From Rhodoluna sp. (GTDB lineage Bacteria; Actinomycetota; Actinomycetes; Actinomycetales; Microbacteriaceae), in the NCBI GenBank assembly GCA_049314335.1, contig JBMOFL010000001.1, positions 1 to 57,150 of the forward strand: a stretch of 57,150 nt of DNA, in the 5' to 3' direction. Made by a program: the position numbers and the translations under genes. This document shows, piece by piece, positions 3,469-15,212 of the stretch (positions are counted from its first letter, which is position 1; every line of letters starts with the position of its first letter). The notes under the pieces were generated by a model. That model was not told the DNA's origin, did not search any database, and saw only the letters and a list, made by a program, of their open reading frames with translations.

Positions 3469-3783
3469 TTGTCTAAAACTCAGTCGGTGACCTCCCTTGA
3501 GATATCCCCTGAATTAGAACGTCGTAACCGCTTCATCAAATACACCATTGCCATGATTGTGCGCGTAGTTTGCATTGTGCTCGCGGTGAGCTTTCCACTT
3601 GGCTGGATAACTTTAGTTTTTGCAGCTGGAGCGATCTTTCTGCCATATTTCGCTGTGATAATCGCTAACGCCCAAGGCTCAAGTTCCAATAGATCAAGCA
3701 GTAAATCCGCGGAAGCGCCAACAATCTCTATTTCTGCTGATGCCTTCCGACAATCAAAGAGTCATGATGAGCGCAAGCAATAG
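3469..3783 (+). CDS. DUF3099-like small membrane protein
   Basis: Y..AM.VR..C and LPYFAVIIANA motifs, two hydrophobic segments. Usual position between fabG and SURF1 in actinobacteria. Confidence 0.8.
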   Translation: MSKTQSVTSLEISPELERRNRFIKYTIAMIVRVVCIVLAVSFPLGWITLVFAAGAIFLPYFAVIIANAQGSSSNRSSSKSAEAPTISISADAFRQSKSHDERKQ

Positions 3784-4567
3784 ACCAATCTCCACATGGC
3801 TAGGCTGGTTGACTCTTGTTGTGGTCTTCACAACCGCATGCGTCTTACTTTCCAAATGGCAATTCGACAGACAGGCCGAAGTAGTCCAGACAAACTCTCG
3901 AATCGCAGCCAGTTACGCCGCTGAGCCTCGCGCTCTTGAGGAGATTCTTACTACTAAACAGCCGTGGGACACCGCGCTGGAATTCAGATCAGCAATAGTG
4001 TCAGGCAAGTACATTCCTGAAGAGAGCTATTTGGTTCGTAATCGCCCATACAACGCATACCCAGGGTTCCTACAACTTGTAGCCTTCCAAACTGACGGAG
4101 GTTCGATCATCTGGGTTGAACGAGGTTGGTTACCGACAGGAAGCGAGTCGGACTCCCCTGATGATATTCCAGCAGTGGACGCTAACCACCGCCAACTAAC
4201 CCTTCGTCTACGTCCATCAGAACCAGCTTTGGATAGAACAGCACCAGCAGGACAGCTTTCAAGTATCAATCTTGAACTAGCTAGTTCGAACCTAGGTGAC
4301 ACAGATACCTATACTCAGGCTTACGGCCGATTGATTAGTGAAGACCCAGAATTACCGACTGGTCAAAGGATTGGCAAACCCGAACTCAGTGAAGGCAATC
4401 ATCTCAGCTATGCAATGCAATGGATATTGTTTGGCTTGATGGCTATAGGTGCAGTGTTCTGGACTATTTCACAGGAGCGTCGCAGAAAGATGGGCCTACC
4501 TCCTCGAAGGCTAAAAATGTTTAACAGAGACAAAGACGCTGAAGTTGAAGACAAGATTCTGGAGTAA
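3740..4567 (+). CDS. SURF1-family cytochrome oxidase biogenesis protein
   Basis: N-terminal TM followed by LSKWQFDR, VERGW, C-terminal NHLSYAMQW plus TM. True start probably ATG 3764 or 3767. Confidence 0.9.
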   Translation: MPSDNQRVMMSASNRPISTWLGWLTLVVVFTTACVLLSKWQFDRQAEVVQTNSRIAASYAAEPRALEEILTTKQPWDTALEFRSAIVSGKYIPEESYLVRNRPYNAYPGFLQLVAFQTDGGSIIWVERGWLPTGSESDSPDDIPAVDANHRQLTLRLRPSEPALDRTAPAGQLSSINLELASSNLGDTDTYTQAYGRLISEDPELPTGQRIGKPELSEGNHLSYAMQWILFGLMAIGAVFWTISQERRRKMGLPPRRLKMFNRDKDAEVEDKILE

Positions 4568-4608
4568 AAAATTGGCCGCCTAGTTTCCTAGACGGCCAAT
4601 ATTTTTTT
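4566..4608. terminator. Bidirectional intrinsic terminator between SURF1 and the rhodopsin gene
   Basis: 13-bp stem ATTGGCCGCCTAG-TTTC-CTAGACGGCCAAT flanked by an A-tract and a T-tract. On the minus strand the mismatch becomes G-U and the loop is GAAA. Confidence 0.85.
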
Positions 4609-4612
4609 AAAC

Positions 4613-5320
4613 TTACTTCTTCACTGCTTTGATTGCAACGATTCCGAAACCAACTTTGTTGATCACATCTGCGAAGACGTAGATGATTGCAGCTAGACAA
4701 ACAGCAAGTTCAATAGTCTTAGCCTCTGAACCGGAGAGCTCCAGGAATTCTTGAATTGCTGTACCAATCGGGTAAATGGCCCAACCGAAGATAACGAACT
4801 TCTTCATGTTCTCAATCGATTTCTTGATTGCTGCCGTTCCCTTGGTTGGCTTTATCTGCCAGATCGTGTAGACGATGTATAGCCATGCGAATGAAGAGAT
4901 AGCGAAGTTCATGTAGTTACCTATTGAACCAGGCTCACCTATTTCACCGAAGTAGCCAGTGATGATCATCACAAGGTCAGCCATCACGAGTCGATAGGTG
5001 GTTCCCTTTGGAGCTCCAGCAAGAGCTGCAATGATTCCAAACTCAACTAATAGAAGTGGAGTGGTTAGTACCCAGTCCAAGTATCTAACCGGCATTGTCT
5101 TTTCGACTGATGCGATGTCAGTCAGATAAGGGAAGGCAACAATGTCTTTCATCTGCCAGTAAAGAATTGCAGCAATGAAAGTGACAAGAGCCGCATAAGT
5201 AGCCGTTGCCTTATGCTCAGGCTTTAGCTCAGTTCTCTCTAACAGGAAGTACAGTGTTCCAGCTGCCATGGCAACAAAACCCAGCATGAACAGTGCTTGT
5301 GTAATGGTAAGTAGGTCCAT
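4613..5320 (-). CDS. Type-1 microbial rhodopsin, DTE motif, ESR/proteorhodopsin-like probable light-driven proton pump
   Basis: Seven hydrophobic helices. Helix C RYLDWVLTTPLLLVEF (D82/T86/E93), helix D ADLVMIITGYFGE, helix F GWAIYPIG, helix G ADVINKVGFG (D218, Schiff-base K222). Confidence 0.95.
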   Translation of the reverse strand: MDLLTITQALFMLGFVAMAAGTLYFLLERTELKPEHKATATYAALVTFIAAILYWQMKDIVAFPYLTDIASVEKTMPVRYLDWVLTTPLLLVEFGIIAALAGAPKGTTYRLVMADLVMIITGYFGEIGEPGSIGNYMNFAISSFAWLYIVYTIWQIKPTKGTAAIKKSIENMKKFVIFGWAIYPIGTAIQEFLELSGSEAKTIELAVCLAAIIYVFADVINKVGFGIVAIKAVKK

Positions 5321-5326
5321 GATTGA

Positions 5327-5355
5327 TCCTTTCTAGATCTGTCTAAACCACACTA
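5327..5355 (-). promoter_or_regulatory. Shine-Dalgarno and candidate -10 element of the rhodopsin gene
   Basis: Minus strand reads TAGTGT (TANNNT, 5350-5355), then AGAAAGGA-TCAATC-ATG. Confidence 0.5.
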
Positions 5356-5378: not shown

Positions 5379-6977
5379 CTAAGACAAAACAATCAAATCG
5401 CGATAGCCATCATTCCAGAGATCTTCTTGGCCATCAGGCATCACCAGCACTCGTTCAGGGTTCAGGGCATCAACAGCGCCAACATCGTGGGAAACCAGTA
5501 CCACAGCGCCTGAGAACGAGGCTAGAGCCTTCAGGATCTCTTCGCGGCTGGCAGGGTCGAGGTTGTTTGTCGGCTCATCTAGTAGCAAAACGTTGGCTCT
5601 AGAGACCACCAGTGCAGCCAGAGCAAGTCTTGTCTTCTCCCCTCCGCTGAGTACCTTTGCTGGCTTATCCACATCATCACCAGAGAATAAGAATGAACCT
5701 AGAACCTTACGCGCATCGGTGTCATTTAGCTCTGGTGCCTGAGCCTGCATATTTTGCAGCACAGTTTTGTTGATATCTAGGGTCTCATGCTCCTGAGCGT
5801 AGTAACCAATCTTCAGACCATGGCCTGCGTCAATCTTTCCGGTGTCAGGTTGCTCAACGTCACCAAGTATTCTCAACAACGTTGTCTTTCCTGCACCGTT
5901 GAGTCCGATTATGACAACTCTTGAGCCTCTATCAATCGCCAAGTCAACCGCAGTAAAGATTTCTAGTGAGCCATAGCTCTTACTTAGGTTGTGTCCAAAC
6001 AGCGGAGTCTTTCCACATGCTTGCGGTTCTGGGAATCGAATGTTCGCAACCCGATCTTTTTCACGTACATCATCAAGTGAGCTAAGTAGCTTCTCCGCAC
6101 GTTTATTCATTTGGTGTGCGGCTGATGCCTTGGATGCTTTAGCACCAAATTTCGCTGCTTGTAGTTGAAGAACAGAGGCCTTCTTCTCGGCTATGGCGCG
6201 ATCACGCTTTCTACGCTCTTCATCAGCTTCACGTTGCTTGAGATACGCTCGCCAGCCCATGTTGTAGATATCAATAACTCCACGATTCGCATCCAGATAG
6301 AAAACTCGGTTCACAGTTTCTTCGACGATGTCTATATCGTGACTGATAACAATTAGGCCACCCTGATAGTTCTTTAGAAATTCTCGAAGCCAGATGATGC
6401 TGTCGGCATCCAAGTGGTTAGTTGGTTCATCCAAAATCATGGTGGTTGCATCAGAGAAAAGAATTCTTGCCAACTCGATACGTCTTCGTTGTCCACCTGA
6501 AAGCGTTCCAATTGGCTGACTCAATACATTTGGCTTGAGTCCAAGGTTGCTGGCAATAGCCGCAGCTTCTGCCTCAGCGGCATAACCACCATTTGCTTCA
6601 AATTGATTTTCAAGTCTCTCGTAGCGTTCCATGGCTTGTGAATAGACTGCTTCATCCACTGAACCCATTTGCTCTCTGGTGGCTTCAAGCTTCTTTATGA
6701 TGGTTCCCAGGCCTCTTGCATTCAAGATCCTGTCGCTTGCCAGTTCCTCAAGATCGCCCGTCCTAGGGTCTTGAGGCAGGTAACCAATCTCACCAATACG
6801 CTCAACAGTTCCTGCGCTCTGCTGAAAATCTCCAGCAATGACCTTGGTCAGAGTGGTCTTACCAGCTCCATTGCGGCCGACTAGACCTACTTTGTCGCCT
6901 TTAGATACCTGGAAGTTGACGCCAGACATCAAGACTCTTGCGCCAATCGTTATTTCAAGTTCACGCACGTTAATCAT
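5379..6977 (-). CDS. ABC-F family ribosome-associated ATPase
   Basis: Two NBDs (GRNGAGKT/LSGGQ/LDEPTNHLD and GLNGAGKT/LSGGE/LDEPTNNLD) with a charged linker and no TM segments. Confidence 0.93.
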   Translation of the reverse strand: MINVRELEITIGARVLMSGVNFQVSKGDKVGLVGRNGAGKTTLTKVIAGDFQQSAGTVERIGEIGYLPQDPRTGDLEELASDRILNARGLGTIIKKLEATREQMGSVDEAVYSQAMERYERLENQFEANGGYAAEAEAAAIASNLGLKPNVLSQPIGTLSGGQRRRIELARILFSDATTMILDEPTNHLDADSIIWLREFLKNYQGGLIVISHDIDIVEETVNRVFYLDANRGVIDIYNMGWRAYLKQREADEERRKRDRAIAEKKASVLQLQAAKFGAKASKASAAHQMNKRAEKLLSSLDDVREKDRVANIRFPEPQACGKTPLFGHNLSKSYGSLEIFTAVDLAIDRGSRVVIIGLNGAGKTTLLRILGDVEQPDTGKIDAGHGLKIGYYAQEHETLDINKTVLQNMQAQAPELNDTDARKVLGSFLFSGDDVDKPAKVLSGGEKTRLALAALVVSRANVLLLDEPTNNLDPASREEILKALASFSGAVVLVSHDVGAVDALNPERVLVMPDGQEDLWNDGYRDLIVLS

Positions 6978-11658: not shown

Positions 11659-11843
11659 GTTGTCTTCTTTCTGAAGGGTTGAAGCTAATGTGAGGAATCT
11701 GAATCTCTTTTTGTGGGCAAATTTCTTTGATGGTTCTAAACTTTTTCGCTCTTCTCAAGATGTTCTCAAGTTTGGCGGATAGTGTAAGTTTACCTAAACG
11801 TTACGAACTAAGTAACCCCAGAAACGAACAGAAAGAGCAAGTT

Positions 11844-12725
11844 TTGATCGACAAGTTGTTTGGCAGCCACAGAATACGACTTTATGCATGGTTGTCTCTA
11901 GGCAGTCAAATCCTTATTGTCGTAACCGGCGGAGCTGTTCGACTTACTGGCTCGGGACTTGGTTGCCCTACTTGGCCTGAATGCGAACCTGGCTCTCTTG
12001 TAAACGTGCCTGAGCAGGGTATCCACGGAGTTATTGAGTTTGGTAACCGACTACTGACTTTCCTTCTGCTATTCATTTCCCTCGGCACATTTATTACGGT
12101 CATGCGATTAAAGAAAGGCCATCGAAAAGGGCTGTTCTGGACCTCCCTTGCTCTTGGCCTTGGAATAGTTGCTCAAGCAATTCTTGGCGGAATCACTGTT
12201 CTTACTGGCTTGAACTCATGGATTGTAGGAGCACACTTCCTTGTATCAATGGGCTTGATTTCGATTGCAACATTCTTGGTTTGGTATTCGAGGGGACGCA
12301 GAAGGTTGGACCATGACAGGTCTCTTTCCAGACTCTCCCTGTTCATGGTTCCAGTTGCTTCCGCAGTAATTGTTATCGGAGTTATTCTGACGGGCTCAGG
12401 TCCGCACGCAGGCGATAGTGAAACACCGCGAAATGGATTAGATTCTGAGCTTTGGTCTCACTATCACGCCTATCCGGCATACCTTTTGGTTCTGCTAACC
12501 ATCGTTCAGGTGGCTTGGCGATGGTCCAAAACTGGACCGAAGAGTGCGAGATTCTCCCTAGCGCTATTGGCCGTTCTAGCGGCTCAAGCTATGCTCGGGC
12601 TGATTCAAACCTGGTTGGGACTTCCACTGATCTTGGTTGGTTTACACATGCTTGGAGCTTCTGTACTAGCAAGTCTCATCACGTATCAAGCGTTGCTAAA
12701 CAAAGCATGGTTTGGTAGCAAATGA
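11844..12725 (+). CDS. ctaA: Heme A synthase (COX15/CtaA)
   Basis: GGAVRLTGSGLGCPTWPEC, IEFGNR, AHF, GSGPHAGD, GLHMLG. Start moved to TTG 11844 after a purine-rich stretch; the ORF track start at 11727 looks too long. Confidence 0.9.
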   Translation: MIDKLFGSHRIRLYAWLSLGSQILIVVTGGAVRLTGSGLGCPTWPECEPGSLVNVPEQGIHGVIEFGNRLLTFLLLFISLGTFITVMRLKKGHRKGLFWTSLALGLGIVAQAILGGITVLTGLNSWIVGAHFLVSMGLISIATFLVWYSRGRRRLDHDRSLSRLSLFMVPVASAVIVIGVILTGSGPHAGDSETPRNGLDSELWSHYHAYPAYLLVLLTIVQVAWRWSKTGPKSARFSLALLAVLAAQAMLGLIQTWLGLPLILVGLHMLGASVLASLITYQALLNKAWFGSK

Positions 12726-14092
12726 GTGCTGTTTTCTGGTTCAGAAGAGATCTTCGTCTCCAAGACAATGAGGCCTTGACCAGAGCGTTTGAGTCCGCAC
12801 CGAATGGTGTTGCCGCAGTTTTCATGTTCAATGAATTGGAGTATCAGGCTCTAGAGGGCATTAGACAGCACAGCTTGACCGAGTCAATCCGATCTTTGAG
12901 CAATGACATCAAGGGACTGCTACACGTCCTAAGTGTTGAATCGGTCAAAGACTTTGGCGAAAGACTTGCCGAAGTTTGTTTACAAAACAACATTTCTCAA
13001 GTCTTTGCAATGCAGTCTTTCGACCCTAAAGGCACATCAGAACAGTCAATAGCTACTCAAGCTCTCAAAGCGAAGGGCATCGATTTACATCTAATTGGAT
13101 CAGCTTATGCAGTTCTGCCAGGCACAGTTCGTAAACCAGATGGAGGCAACTATCGCGTTTATACTCCTTTCTTCAAGGCCTGGTCTCACCTTGCAGATGT
13201 CTTACCTAAAGCCTTGCCTAGCAATGCAACTTGGCTGTCTATAGATGTGAGCAAAGATATACCTCAACCAACAAAGCCCTCACCTATCAAAGTTATTGCT
13301 GGCGAAGCTTTTGCACTCAGAACTTTTGAACGATTCACAAAACGAGCGTTGAATCAGTATGACGAGTTGCGCAACAGAGCAGATCTCAGTGGAACATCTC
13401 ATCTCTCCCACGCTTTAGCACATGGTGAAATTCACCCAAGAACACTGTTGGCAAAATTAGGAGATTCACAAGGGCACGAAGTGTTTCGCAAAGAGATTGC
13501 CTGGCGTGAGTTCTACGCTGATGTTCTTTTCCACTACCCTCACACACTTGATGACTATTACGAACCAAGATTCAGGAAACTACGCTACGACACCGGTGCA
13601 ATTGCCGAAAAACGTTTCCAAGCCTGGTGCAAAGGTGAGACAGGCTTCCCGATGGTCGATGCCGGTATGAGACAACTGCTGGCTGAAGGCTGGATGCATA
13701 ACCGAGTGCGCATGATCGTTGCATCATTCTTGATCAAAGATCTTCACATTGAATGGACGCGAGGTGCTGAACACTTCGAGGCTCATCTGAGCGATTTTGA
13801 CCCTGCTTCCAATTCGCACGGATGGCAGTGGACGGCTGGCTGTGGAACAGATGCATCGCCTTATTACCGAATCTTCAACCCAATCCTGCAGGGTCTCAAA
13901 TTTGACCCTCAAGGTGATTATGTCCGCAAATACGTTCCAGAGCTAAGACACCTAACTGGATCTGCTGCACATGAACCTTGGGAAATTTTTGACGGTTACG
14001 CCCAAGGGTATCCAGAGCAGATAGTTGATCATTCGCAGGAGCGAAATGAGTCGCTGGCAAGACTGGAAGAGCTAAAGAATCTAAACTCTTAG
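12722..14092 (+). CDS. phr: Deoxyribodipyrimidine (CPD) photolyase
   Basis: [64 protein letters not shown]. Confidence 0.92.
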
Positions 14093-15024
14093 AACAGTTT
14101 GATGAAAACCAGCGGATCTACACCAATGGCAATAAACAAAACAGTTAGATAGGTAATCGAGAAGTGGAAAAGCTTCATCGGGTTATCTACTGAACCAGCT
14201 TTAGTCTTCGTCTGAAGAAGATGTGCTTCGATGATGAACCAGATTCCCCCACCAATAGCTGTGACGCTGTAAATCAAACCCATCGGATGAACTGGGATCA
14301 AGAGCAAAGTCGAAGCCACCATCGCGTAGCTATAGATAACTATTTGTTTGGCAACATTCTTGCTGTCTGCCACAACCGGAAGCATAGGAACACCTGCCGC
14401 CTTGTAGTCAGCGAGGTATTTGATGGATAGCGGCCAGTAGTGCGGTGGAGTCCAAAGGAAAATCATAAGAAACAGCACAGCCGCTGACCAGCCAACAGTT
14501 CCAGTCACTGAACTGAAGCCAATTAGAACAGGCATTGCCCCAGCTGCCCCTCCCCAGACTATGTTTTGGGAAGTTCTGCGCTTCAGCAGCAAGGTGTAGA
14601 TAAAAATGTAGAACAACTGAGCTGATAGAGCCAAGATCGAACTCAGCCAATTGACCATAAAACCAAGCCAAAGCACGGAAATAACTCCAATTGCAACAGC
14701 AAAGACTTTGGCTTCAAATAGGCTCAAATGCCCCGTAACTAGCGGTCTTTTCTGGGTTCTGCCCATAATTTTGTCGATATCAGCATCAATAATGCAGTTA
14801 AAGGCATTTGCTGAGCCAGCACTGAGGGATCCGCCGATCAGGGTGGCCAAAACCAGCCAGAGGTCAGGAATCCCCTGTTCGGCAAGAATCATGACCGGGA
14901 CGAGTGTAATCAGCAGTAATTCAATGACTCTTGGCTTGGTCAGAGCAAAATACGCACCCAGCTTACGACCAACGGAAATGGCTGGTTTTGCGCTTGGAGG
15001 GCTGGTAGTTGTTGAGGAAGTCAT
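14089..15024 (-). CDS. ctaB: Protoheme IX farnesyltransferase (heme O synthase)
   Basis: LTKPRVI, N...[31 protein letters not shown]. Start reassigned to ATG 15024. Confidence 0.93.
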
Positions 15025-15212
15025 CTCTGCCAGTCTAAACGAAATACATTCTTCCGTTACAAATCCGTAATCAAATTGCCTGTCGGGTATAGAATTCAAA
15101 GGCGTTGAGAAGAGCCAAAAAGTATTGAAAATGGCTCATTTTGGGCCAAATGAGGGCATTGTCGCCCGCACCAAACGATTTTCAAGTCAAATACATACAA
15201 GGAGAAGGTTCC

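What the first reader, a model, noticed from the sequence alone, without database searches (positions are those of the whole stretch)
4613..5320. Exiguobacterium-type (ESR-like) rhodopsin in an actinobacterium instead of the expected actinorhodopsin
Seen: a complete 235-aa 7-TM opsin with K222 and D82/T86/E93. Established: planktonic Microbacteriaceae typically carry actinorhodopsins of the xanthorhodopsin branch. From my recollection of the ESR sequence, the N-terminal third (GFVAMAAGTLYFLLER...TATYAALVTFIAAI.Y..MKD), TTPLLLVxF, FAWLYIVY, GWAIYPIG and NKVGFG match Exiguobacterium sibiricum rhodopsin closely, and marine actinobacterial MACR more loosely. Inference: this may be an uncharacterised rhodopsin subclade, possibly acquired horizontally and possibly a second opsin in this genome.
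Basis: partly seen in the sequence, partly recalled or inferred. Interest (0 to 1): 0.85.

Follow-up and report, generated by a model that had tools for sequence, protein, structure and literature searches.

The report
Histidine-less second rhodopsin in Rhodoluna
A plankton bacterium, likely Rhodoluna, carries beside its usual actinorhodopsin an intact second rhodopsin of a lineage already reported in its family; it likely pumps protons in green light, yet it and its whole lineage lack the histidine that is called fully conserved in such bacterial pumps, which would make it a natural test of how they work.

Summary
Observation confirmed. 4613-5320(-) is an intact 235-aa type-1 opsin (D82/T86/E93, K222). 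Its best solved relative is ESR (4HYJ). It sits in a Microbacteriaceae clade (100/100) inside the ESR branch, and grouping with actinorhodopsin is rejected (AU p=3e-6).

It comes in addition to actinorhodopsin, not instead: the genome also encodes an ActR-type opsin and a heliorhodopsin; no blh was found (84% complete).

The clade is already in print (Pontimonas 2018, lake opsins 2023, Luna-1 2025). A 59%-identical Pontimonas orthologue bound retinal at 538 nm; pumping was not tested. Within Rhodoluna the gene is old and inherited at one site, not a recent transfer.

Not found in my literature searches: ESR His57 is Leu/Met/Phe in 230 of 230 clade sequences. The helix-G Arg-Glu pair is also lost, a new Glu191 appears, and a Lys donor re-arose at least twice.

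Best reading: a green-light outward proton pump with a lone-Asp acceptor, probably using scavenged retinal (0.78). The scan earlier noted lysine-donor ESR-type opsins in two other genomes, not this clade.

The parts
4613..5320 (-). ESR-branch type-1 opsin gene, 235 aa (P0001): R79, D82, T86, L90, E93, D218, K222; Leu53 at the His57 position of ESR; Ala210-Ala211 at ESR Arg213-Glu214; Glu191
5327..5333 (-). Ribosome-binding site GAAAGGA, 6 nt before the ATG
   Evidence: sequence; a GAAAGG/GAAGGG core is seen upstream in the carrier loci aligned
5350..5355 (-). Putative -10 promoter element TAGTGT (TANNNT), 30-35 nt before the ATG; suggests the gene has its own promoter (inferred)
   Evidence: a TANNNT at about this place in 29 of 31 loci aligned, counted by eye (L034 and L185 share one upstream sequence). 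The sigma-70 scan did not report it
4571..4600 (.). 13-bp hairpin flanked by A/T runs between the convergent SURF1 and opsin genes; likely a bidirectional intrinsic terminator
   Evidence: fold -24.6 kcal/mol, z -5.75, 0 of 200 shuffles as stable
3740..4567 (+). SURF1-family gene, left flank of the site; not part of the opsin system
   Evidence: PF02104, E 5e-28; it abuts the ABC-F gene in 34 of 34 non-carrier loci
5379..6977 (-). ABC-F type ATPase gene, right flank; not part of the opsin system
   Evidence: two ABC_tran domains plus ABC_tran_Xtn; present at the site with or without the opsin

Best explanation
The gene encodes an intact rhodopsin of the Microbacteriaceae sub-clade of the ESR branch, a second type-1 opsin beside actinorhodopsin, that likely works as a green-light outward proton pump with a lone-aspartate acceptor and likely relies on scavenged retinal. 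Shown: the sequence has Lys222, Arg79, Asp82, Thr86, Glu93 and Asp218; Leu53 replaces the conserved His; Ala-Ala replaces the helix-G Arg-Glu pair. Inferred cycle: retinal on Lys222 isomerises, the Schiff-base proton passes to Asp82, which has no His partner (as in bacteriorhodopsin), and Glu93 reprotonates the Schiff base from the cytoplasm. The proton would leave through Arg79 with Glu126 and/or the clade-specific Glu191, because ESR's Asp85-His57-water-Glu214 route is missing. Absorption is predicted near 535-540 nm, with no carotenoid antenna (bulky Phe139). Its value beside ActR is likely a different pH range or oligomer dependence; this is the weakest step.
For: R79, D82, D218 and K222 are invariant in all clade rows that cover them, and E126 in 230 of 230. 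21 of 24 retinal-pocket residues equal those of Pontimonas WP_104913209.1, which is 59% identical and gave a 538-nm pigment in E. coli (PMC7979833). ESR-K96E pumps like wild type (PMC8387761). His-to-Met mutants of His-Asp pumps stay functional: PR function at low pH is restored (PMC12002130), and GR H87M shows M, O and proton transfer even as a monomer, pKa about 3.7 (PMC6656774). dN/dS is 0.03-0.14 in 12 of 13 pairs, the other pair saturated. In 5 of 5 near-complete genomes of four other genera it is the only PF01036 opsin, and 3 of those 5 have blh. No transducer gene is adjacent.
Against: I found no report of pumping by any member of this clade; Inoue et al. assayed transport only for four other proteins. 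In ESR itself H57M raises the Asp85 pKa from 2.3 to 6.3 (PMC11155677), the opposite direction to PR and GR, so the pH consequence cannot be predicted. Why Rhodoluna keeps two pumps is unexplained. Several ESR-branch lineages that lack His also lack a donor (DTI, DTM, DTN), and Proteo-SR, a related group, is sensory (PMC10519204). The role of Glu191 rests on sequence position only; model coordinates could not be measured.
Confidence: 0.78

Rival explanations
1. It binds retinal but is a slow-cycling sensor or a very weak pump; ActR does the energy work and this protein signals light.
For: The extracellular release route of ESR and MAR (His, helix-G Glu) is gone. 5 of 5 near-complete Rhodoluna carriers tested also hold a second PF01036 opsin. 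A sensory offshoot related to DTK pumps exists. DTS and Lys-less derivatives occur in the clade.
Against: Acceptor and a carboxyl or lysine donor are kept: E 212, K 18 of 230. No transducer or soluble partner is next to the gene in the loci examined. It is the sole PF01036 opsin in 5 of 5 genomes of other genera. Cho et al. found no homologue of the Exiguobacterium transduction system in Pontimonas.
Confidence: 0.14
2. It transports another ion, or protons inward or passively, because the remodelled extracellular half changes selectivity or direction.
For: Clade-wide changes at positions 53, 187, 191, 210, 211 and 215 against Exiguobacterium.
Against: The DTE motif with Asp218 is the outward proton-pump signature. 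It has neither NDQ, NTQ or TSA motifs nor the Pro for Asp212 of xenorhodopsins (motif rules recalled, not from a call).
Confidence: 0.04
3. It is a recently transferred gene from an Exiguobacterium-like donor, a bin contaminant, or a decaying copy.
For: Patchy in the genus (33 of 183 genomes). GC3 0.483 is the highest of 12 window genes compared (others 0.33-0.46).
Against: Same site beside SURF1 in 34 of 34 carrier loci. 24 of 29 splits are shared with the flanking-gene tree. Only 38-45% identical to Bacillota copies. A long stem (1.11) separates the clade from its relatives. Purifying selection, and conserved promoter-like and RBS motifs.
Confidence: 0.04

Closest known systems
Pontimonas salivibrio rhodopsin (WP_104913209.1 / AVG23627.1; 'Exiguobacterium subcluster' of Cho 2018, 'ESR Type-1' clade of PMC12422013)
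   Same: Same clade (100/100); 59% identity; DTE; Met at the His position, Ala at helix-G Glu, Glu191; 21 of 24 pocket residues.
   Different: Different genomic site. Sole type-1 opsin there, and that genome has blh; here it accompanies ActR and HeR and no blh was found.
Exiguobacterium sibiricum rhodopsin (ESR, PDB 4HYJ) and the DTK pumps
   Same: Best solved match by sequence and fold; same branch (98/96); shares TTPLL, Arg82/Glu130 equivalents and NKVGFG.
   Different: Glu donor instead of Lys96; Leu instead of His57; Ala-Ala instead of Arg213-Glu214; no FPLLxG or LRE motifs; Thr instead of Tyr at the BR189 position; extra Glu191.
Green proteorhodopsins and MAR/MACR
   Same: DTE motif; Leu at the BR93 tuning site; Asn-Lys on helix G.
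   Different: Separate clades, 31-36% identity. They keep His: 96 of 102 non-clade DTE sequences fetched have it.
Actinorhodopsin (xanthorhodopsin branch)
   Same: Same hosts, DTE motif; one is encoded on contig C39 of this genome.
   Different: 28% identity; monophyly with this clade rejected, AU p 3.2e-6; ActR keeps His and helix-G Glu.

Membership tests
Type-1 microbial rhodopsin | 7-TM opsin fold, PF01036 above cut-off, Schiff-base Lys on helix G | tested here: met
   142 bits against cut-off 24.6; model and Foldseek; K222
Type-1 microbial rhodopsin | Binds retinal to form a pigment | not testable with these tools
   Orthologue at 59% identity gave 538 nm; this protein is untested
ESR branch (phylogenetic sense) | Groups with Exiguobacterium rhodopsins to the exclusion of PR, MAR and XR/ActR | tested here: met
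   29-row group 98/96 in the mixture-model tree; 52-row group SH-aLRT 98; exact sister unresolved
ESR-type DTK pump (strict sense) | Lys proton donor (K96) | tested here: not met
   E93; K in 18 of 230 clade sequences
ESR-type DTK pump (strict sense) | His57-Asp85 counterion pair | tested here: not met
   L53; 0 of 230 clade sequences have His
ESR-type DTK pump (strict sense) | FPLLxG (helix C end) and LRE (helix G) motifs named in PMC10519204 | tested here: not met
   FGIIAA and LAA instead
Microbacteriaceae ESR-branch clade (Pontimonas/Microcella/Rhodoluna) | Monophyly with the Pontimonas salivibrio and Microcella opsins | tested here: met
   100/100; SH-aLRT 100
Actinorhodopsin / xanthorhodopsin | Placement in the XR/ActR clade | tested here: not met
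   AU test p 3.18e-6
Actinorhodopsin / xanthorhodopsin | Gly fenestration at the BR138 / XR156 position for a carotenoid antenna | tested here: not met
   F139 in 232 of 232; position mapped through the 24-residue pocket; the Gly rule is recalled
MACR / MAR | Placement with MAR; His51-Asp72 pair | tested here: not met
   MAR-like row branches outside (99/94); 31% identity
Outward proton pump (function) | Light-driven, CCCP-sensitive acidification | not testable with these tools
   Motif-based inference only; no member assayed in the papers seen

The most novel reading that the evidence does not exclude
Aquatic Microbacteriaceae carry a natural eubacterial DTE proton pump that has discarded the whole proteorhodopsin-type extracellular apparatus (His-Asp acceptor pair and helix-G Glu). 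It has converged on a bacteriorhodopsin-like design, with a lone Asp acceptor and a new helix-F Glu191 release group. This would let it pump in a pH range or oligomeric state where the co-resident actinorhodopsin stalls. Natural Glu/Lys donor variants differing by a single residue exist within the clade.
Probability: 0.3. Interest if true: 0.65.

Novelty: new variant of a known kind. Interest (0 to 1): 0.4.

Why it matters
The host and phylogeny are not news. What could matter is mechanism. [quoted passage not shown] Here a selected, widespread lineage with a culturable member that expresses in E. coli lacks both residues. It offers a natural, not engineered, test of whether the pair is needed for vectorial transport. 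It could also explain why about a fifth of Rhodoluna species keep two type-1 opsins, and it supplies natural Glu/Lys donor pairs.

Tried and rejected
Expression: no RNA holder was listed. Laying the two same-study metatranscriptomes gave only 35-37-base pieces of unrelated contigs; uninformative.

NCBIfam has no model for these opsins. The sigma-70 promoter scan found nothing upstream of the gene.

blh (PF15461) and RPE65-type oxygenase (PF03055) were not found in the 84%-complete genome. The blh search does ring in 9 of 183 genus genomes, none of them among the 34 carriers examined.

No close copy of the degenerate paralogue P0134 was found in 183 genus genomes; all hits were intact opsins at 29-36%.

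The E. sibiricum sequence was seen only in the alignment, so trees use other Exiguobacterium and Bacillota proteins.

'His loss is unique to this clade' was considered and rejected: 32 of 99 non-clade DTK and 6 of 102 non-clade DTE sequences fetched also lack it, most often with Asn. 'Recent HGT' was rejected.

Three primary papers on the ESR and PR histidine (PMC3415241, PMC2631968, PMC3732926) are not held; their results are cited second-hand. No complex prediction was run, as no binding claim is made.

Full report
1. Observation. The ORF 4613-5320 on the minus strand gives an intact 235-aa protein. It matches PF01036 at E 2.6e-41. The AlphaFold2 model (pLDDT 93.9) has an opsin-like helical bundle. 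ESR (4HYJ) is the best PDB match by sequence (3.8e-48 against 1.7e-26 for the next) and by fold. Upstream lie an RBS and a TANNNT motif seen in 29 of 31 aligned loci, counted by eye. Downstream lies a 13-bp hairpin, z -5.75.

2. Host and other opsins. The genus is likely Rhodoluna. A record titled Rhodoluna sp. (L034) has the same gene order with a 96%-identical ABC-F protein, and its upstream region is identical to that of a same-genus genome. The genome (84% complete) holds a second PF01036 opsin on C39 that groups with xanthorhodopsin-like rows, and a heliorhodopsin on C56. So the gene is additional to actinorhodopsin. crtB and crtI are present. blh and RPE65-type oxygenases were not found. 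blh occurs in 9 of 183 genus genomes, none of them among the 34 carriers examined, so scavenged retinal is inferred, as discussed for most Luna-1 genomes in PMC12422013 (passages).

3. Phylogeny. With 45 rows and a mixture model, the protein falls in a 13-row clade with the Pontimonas and Microcella opsins (100/100, stem 1.11). That clade lies inside a 29-row ESR branch (98/96), apart from PR, MAR and XR/ActR; its sister is unresolved (35 of the 80 rows were dropped as long or redundant). Forcing it with ActR is rejected (AU p 3.2e-6).

4. Distribution and history. Copies were found in 26 of 120 other genus genomes, one a fragment; 21 of the 26 also show a second opsin match. An indirect query finds 33 of all 183. 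In the family, 22 of 300 sampled genomes carry it, 8 of 98 genera counting this genome's. None of 400 others sampled across the order does. All 34 carrier loci examined have the gene beside SURF1; ABC-F is seen in 30, the rest being cut by contig ends. In 34 of 34 non-carrier loci, SURF1 and ABC-F abut. 32 of the 34 carriers plus one empty-site genome form one host clade (SH-aLRT 100); two carriers lie elsewhere. Opsin and flank trees share 24 of 29 splits, and dN/dS is 0.03-0.14 in 12 of 13 pairs. Other genera keep the gene at other sites. In 5 of 5 such genomes it is the only PF01036 opsin, and 3 of the 5 have blh. This reads as an ancient gain, donor unknown, with vertical descent and losses, not a recent transfer.

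5. What is in print. PMC6106888 (passages) placed the Pontimonas opsin in the Exiguobacterium subcluster, outside actinorhodopsins. bioRxiv 2022.08.01.502354 (passages) lists Luna1 and Luna2 in the ESR branch. PMC12422013 (passages and a supplement search) reports 'AcR' plus 'ESR Type-1' copies in several Rhodoluna species and suggests acquisition by a common ancestor. PMC7979833 (section 8, passages, supplement rows) expressed Pontimonas WP_104913209.1 and measured 538 nm, but tested transport only for four other proteins. I matched that accession to P0301, 59% identical to the window protein, with 21 of 24 pocket residues shared.

6. What I did not find in print (searches; subscription papers and bioRxiv supplements unseen). 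ESR His57 aligns to Leu53. Among the protein and its 120 best hits the position is Met 46, Leu 40, Phe 32, gap 3. Among 232 distinct sequences at 50% identity or more it is Met 104, Leu 90, Phe 37, Asn 1. After dropping the Asn outsider P0399 and the apparently chimeric P0114, 0 of 230 have His. Many of these are near-duplicates, so they are not independent. The clade also has Ala at ESR Glu214 (230 of 232), Ala or Ser at Arg213 (230 of 232), Thr or Val at the BR189 Tyr (230 of 232), and a new Glu191 (212; Gln 18). Glu126, the ESR Glu130 equivalent, is invariant. PMC11155677 (passages) proposes Asp85-His57-water-Glu214 as ESR's exit path. [quoted passage not shown] Against overstating this: His is also absent from 32 of 99 non-clade DTK and 6 of 102 non-clade DTE sequences I fetched (a biased sample). 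The distinctive feature is therefore the combination of DTE, a hydrophobic residue at the His site and no helix-G acid.

7. Mechanism. Shown: the residues above, selection, and pigment formation by an orthologue. Inferred: outward proton pumping with Asp82 as lone acceptor and Glu93 as donor. ESR-K96E pumps (PMC8387761, abstract and section 5). His-to-Met mutants keep or widen function in PR and GR (PMC6656774, passages). In ESR the same change raises the Asp pKa to 6.3, so the direction of any pH shift is open. Glu191 lies one residue before the place of bacteriorhodopsin's Glu194 when counted from the helix-F YP motif (BR numbering recalled); a release role is a guess. A sensory role (compare Proteo-SR, PMC10519204, passages) is the main rival, but no transducer is adjacent and the donor is kept. 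PMC12137139 and PMC10138546 were read in passages and added nothing on this clade.

8. Donor switching. On a tree built without columns 53 and 93, Lys appears twice among 122 clade rows, always with Phe53 (Phe-Lys 13, Phe-Glu 19, Leu-Glu 42, Met-Glu 48). P0021 and P0024 differ only at residue 93; P0024 alone could be a sequence error, but two genomes carry AAA Lys codons on separate branches.

9. Verdict. The feature is real and the ESR-branch call is right. The lineage and its co-occurrence with ActR are already published. The clade-wide loss of the His-Asp pair and helix-G Glu makes it a mechanistically untested variant: interest 0.4.

Noticed in passing
P0021 / P0024; L018 (G005) and L183 (G427): A Lys donor (DTK) arose at least twice inside the DTE clade, only on a Phe53 background; P0021 and P0024 differ solely by E93K. 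17 of 18 Lys-donor sequences also have Leu176 where 213 of 213 Glu-donor ones have Val.
   Followed up: partly
P0133, P0134: Highly diverged proteins that nest among Rhodoluna copies on long branches. P0134 has lost the counterion and the Schiff-base Lys; P0133 has Glu at the acceptor and Ala at the donor. Possibly retinal-free derivatives; no close copy in 183 genus genomes.
   Followed up: partly
L035:2965-3690, L037: Clade members with a DTS motif (no donor), from Microcella-like loci; L035's record title names Pseudomonas, which looks like a mislabel.
   Followed up: no
L142 (G109): Empty SURF1/ABC-F site inside the carrier host clade: a clean loss of the opsin.
   Followed up: yes
L028, L029 (G062, G024): Divergent copies (63%, Gln at 191, different upstream region) at the same site but in hosts outside the main carrier clade, suggesting the site is ancestral in the genus or the host tree is uncertain there.
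   Followed up: partly
window 12722-14092 (+): DNA photolyase gene 7.4 kb from the opsin, between ctaA-like (11727-12725) and, by eye, ctaB-like (14089-15099) genes; no link to the opsin shown.
   Followed up: no
L003:1435-2304 (G000 C56) and L002:1447-2304 (G000 C39): Heliorhodopsin and His-bearing actinorhodopsin of the same genome: three rhodopsin types in a 1.16-Mb assembly.
   Followed up: yes
P0114: Clade-type N-terminal three quarters joined to a proteorhodopsin-like C-terminus; likely an assembly chimera or a recombinant.
   Followed up: no
P0123, P0398-P0400, L038-L039 and others: Much of the wider ESR branch has Asn, Gln, Met or Ser at the His site, with donors K, I, M, N or V; an under-described set of motifs.
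   Followed up: partly
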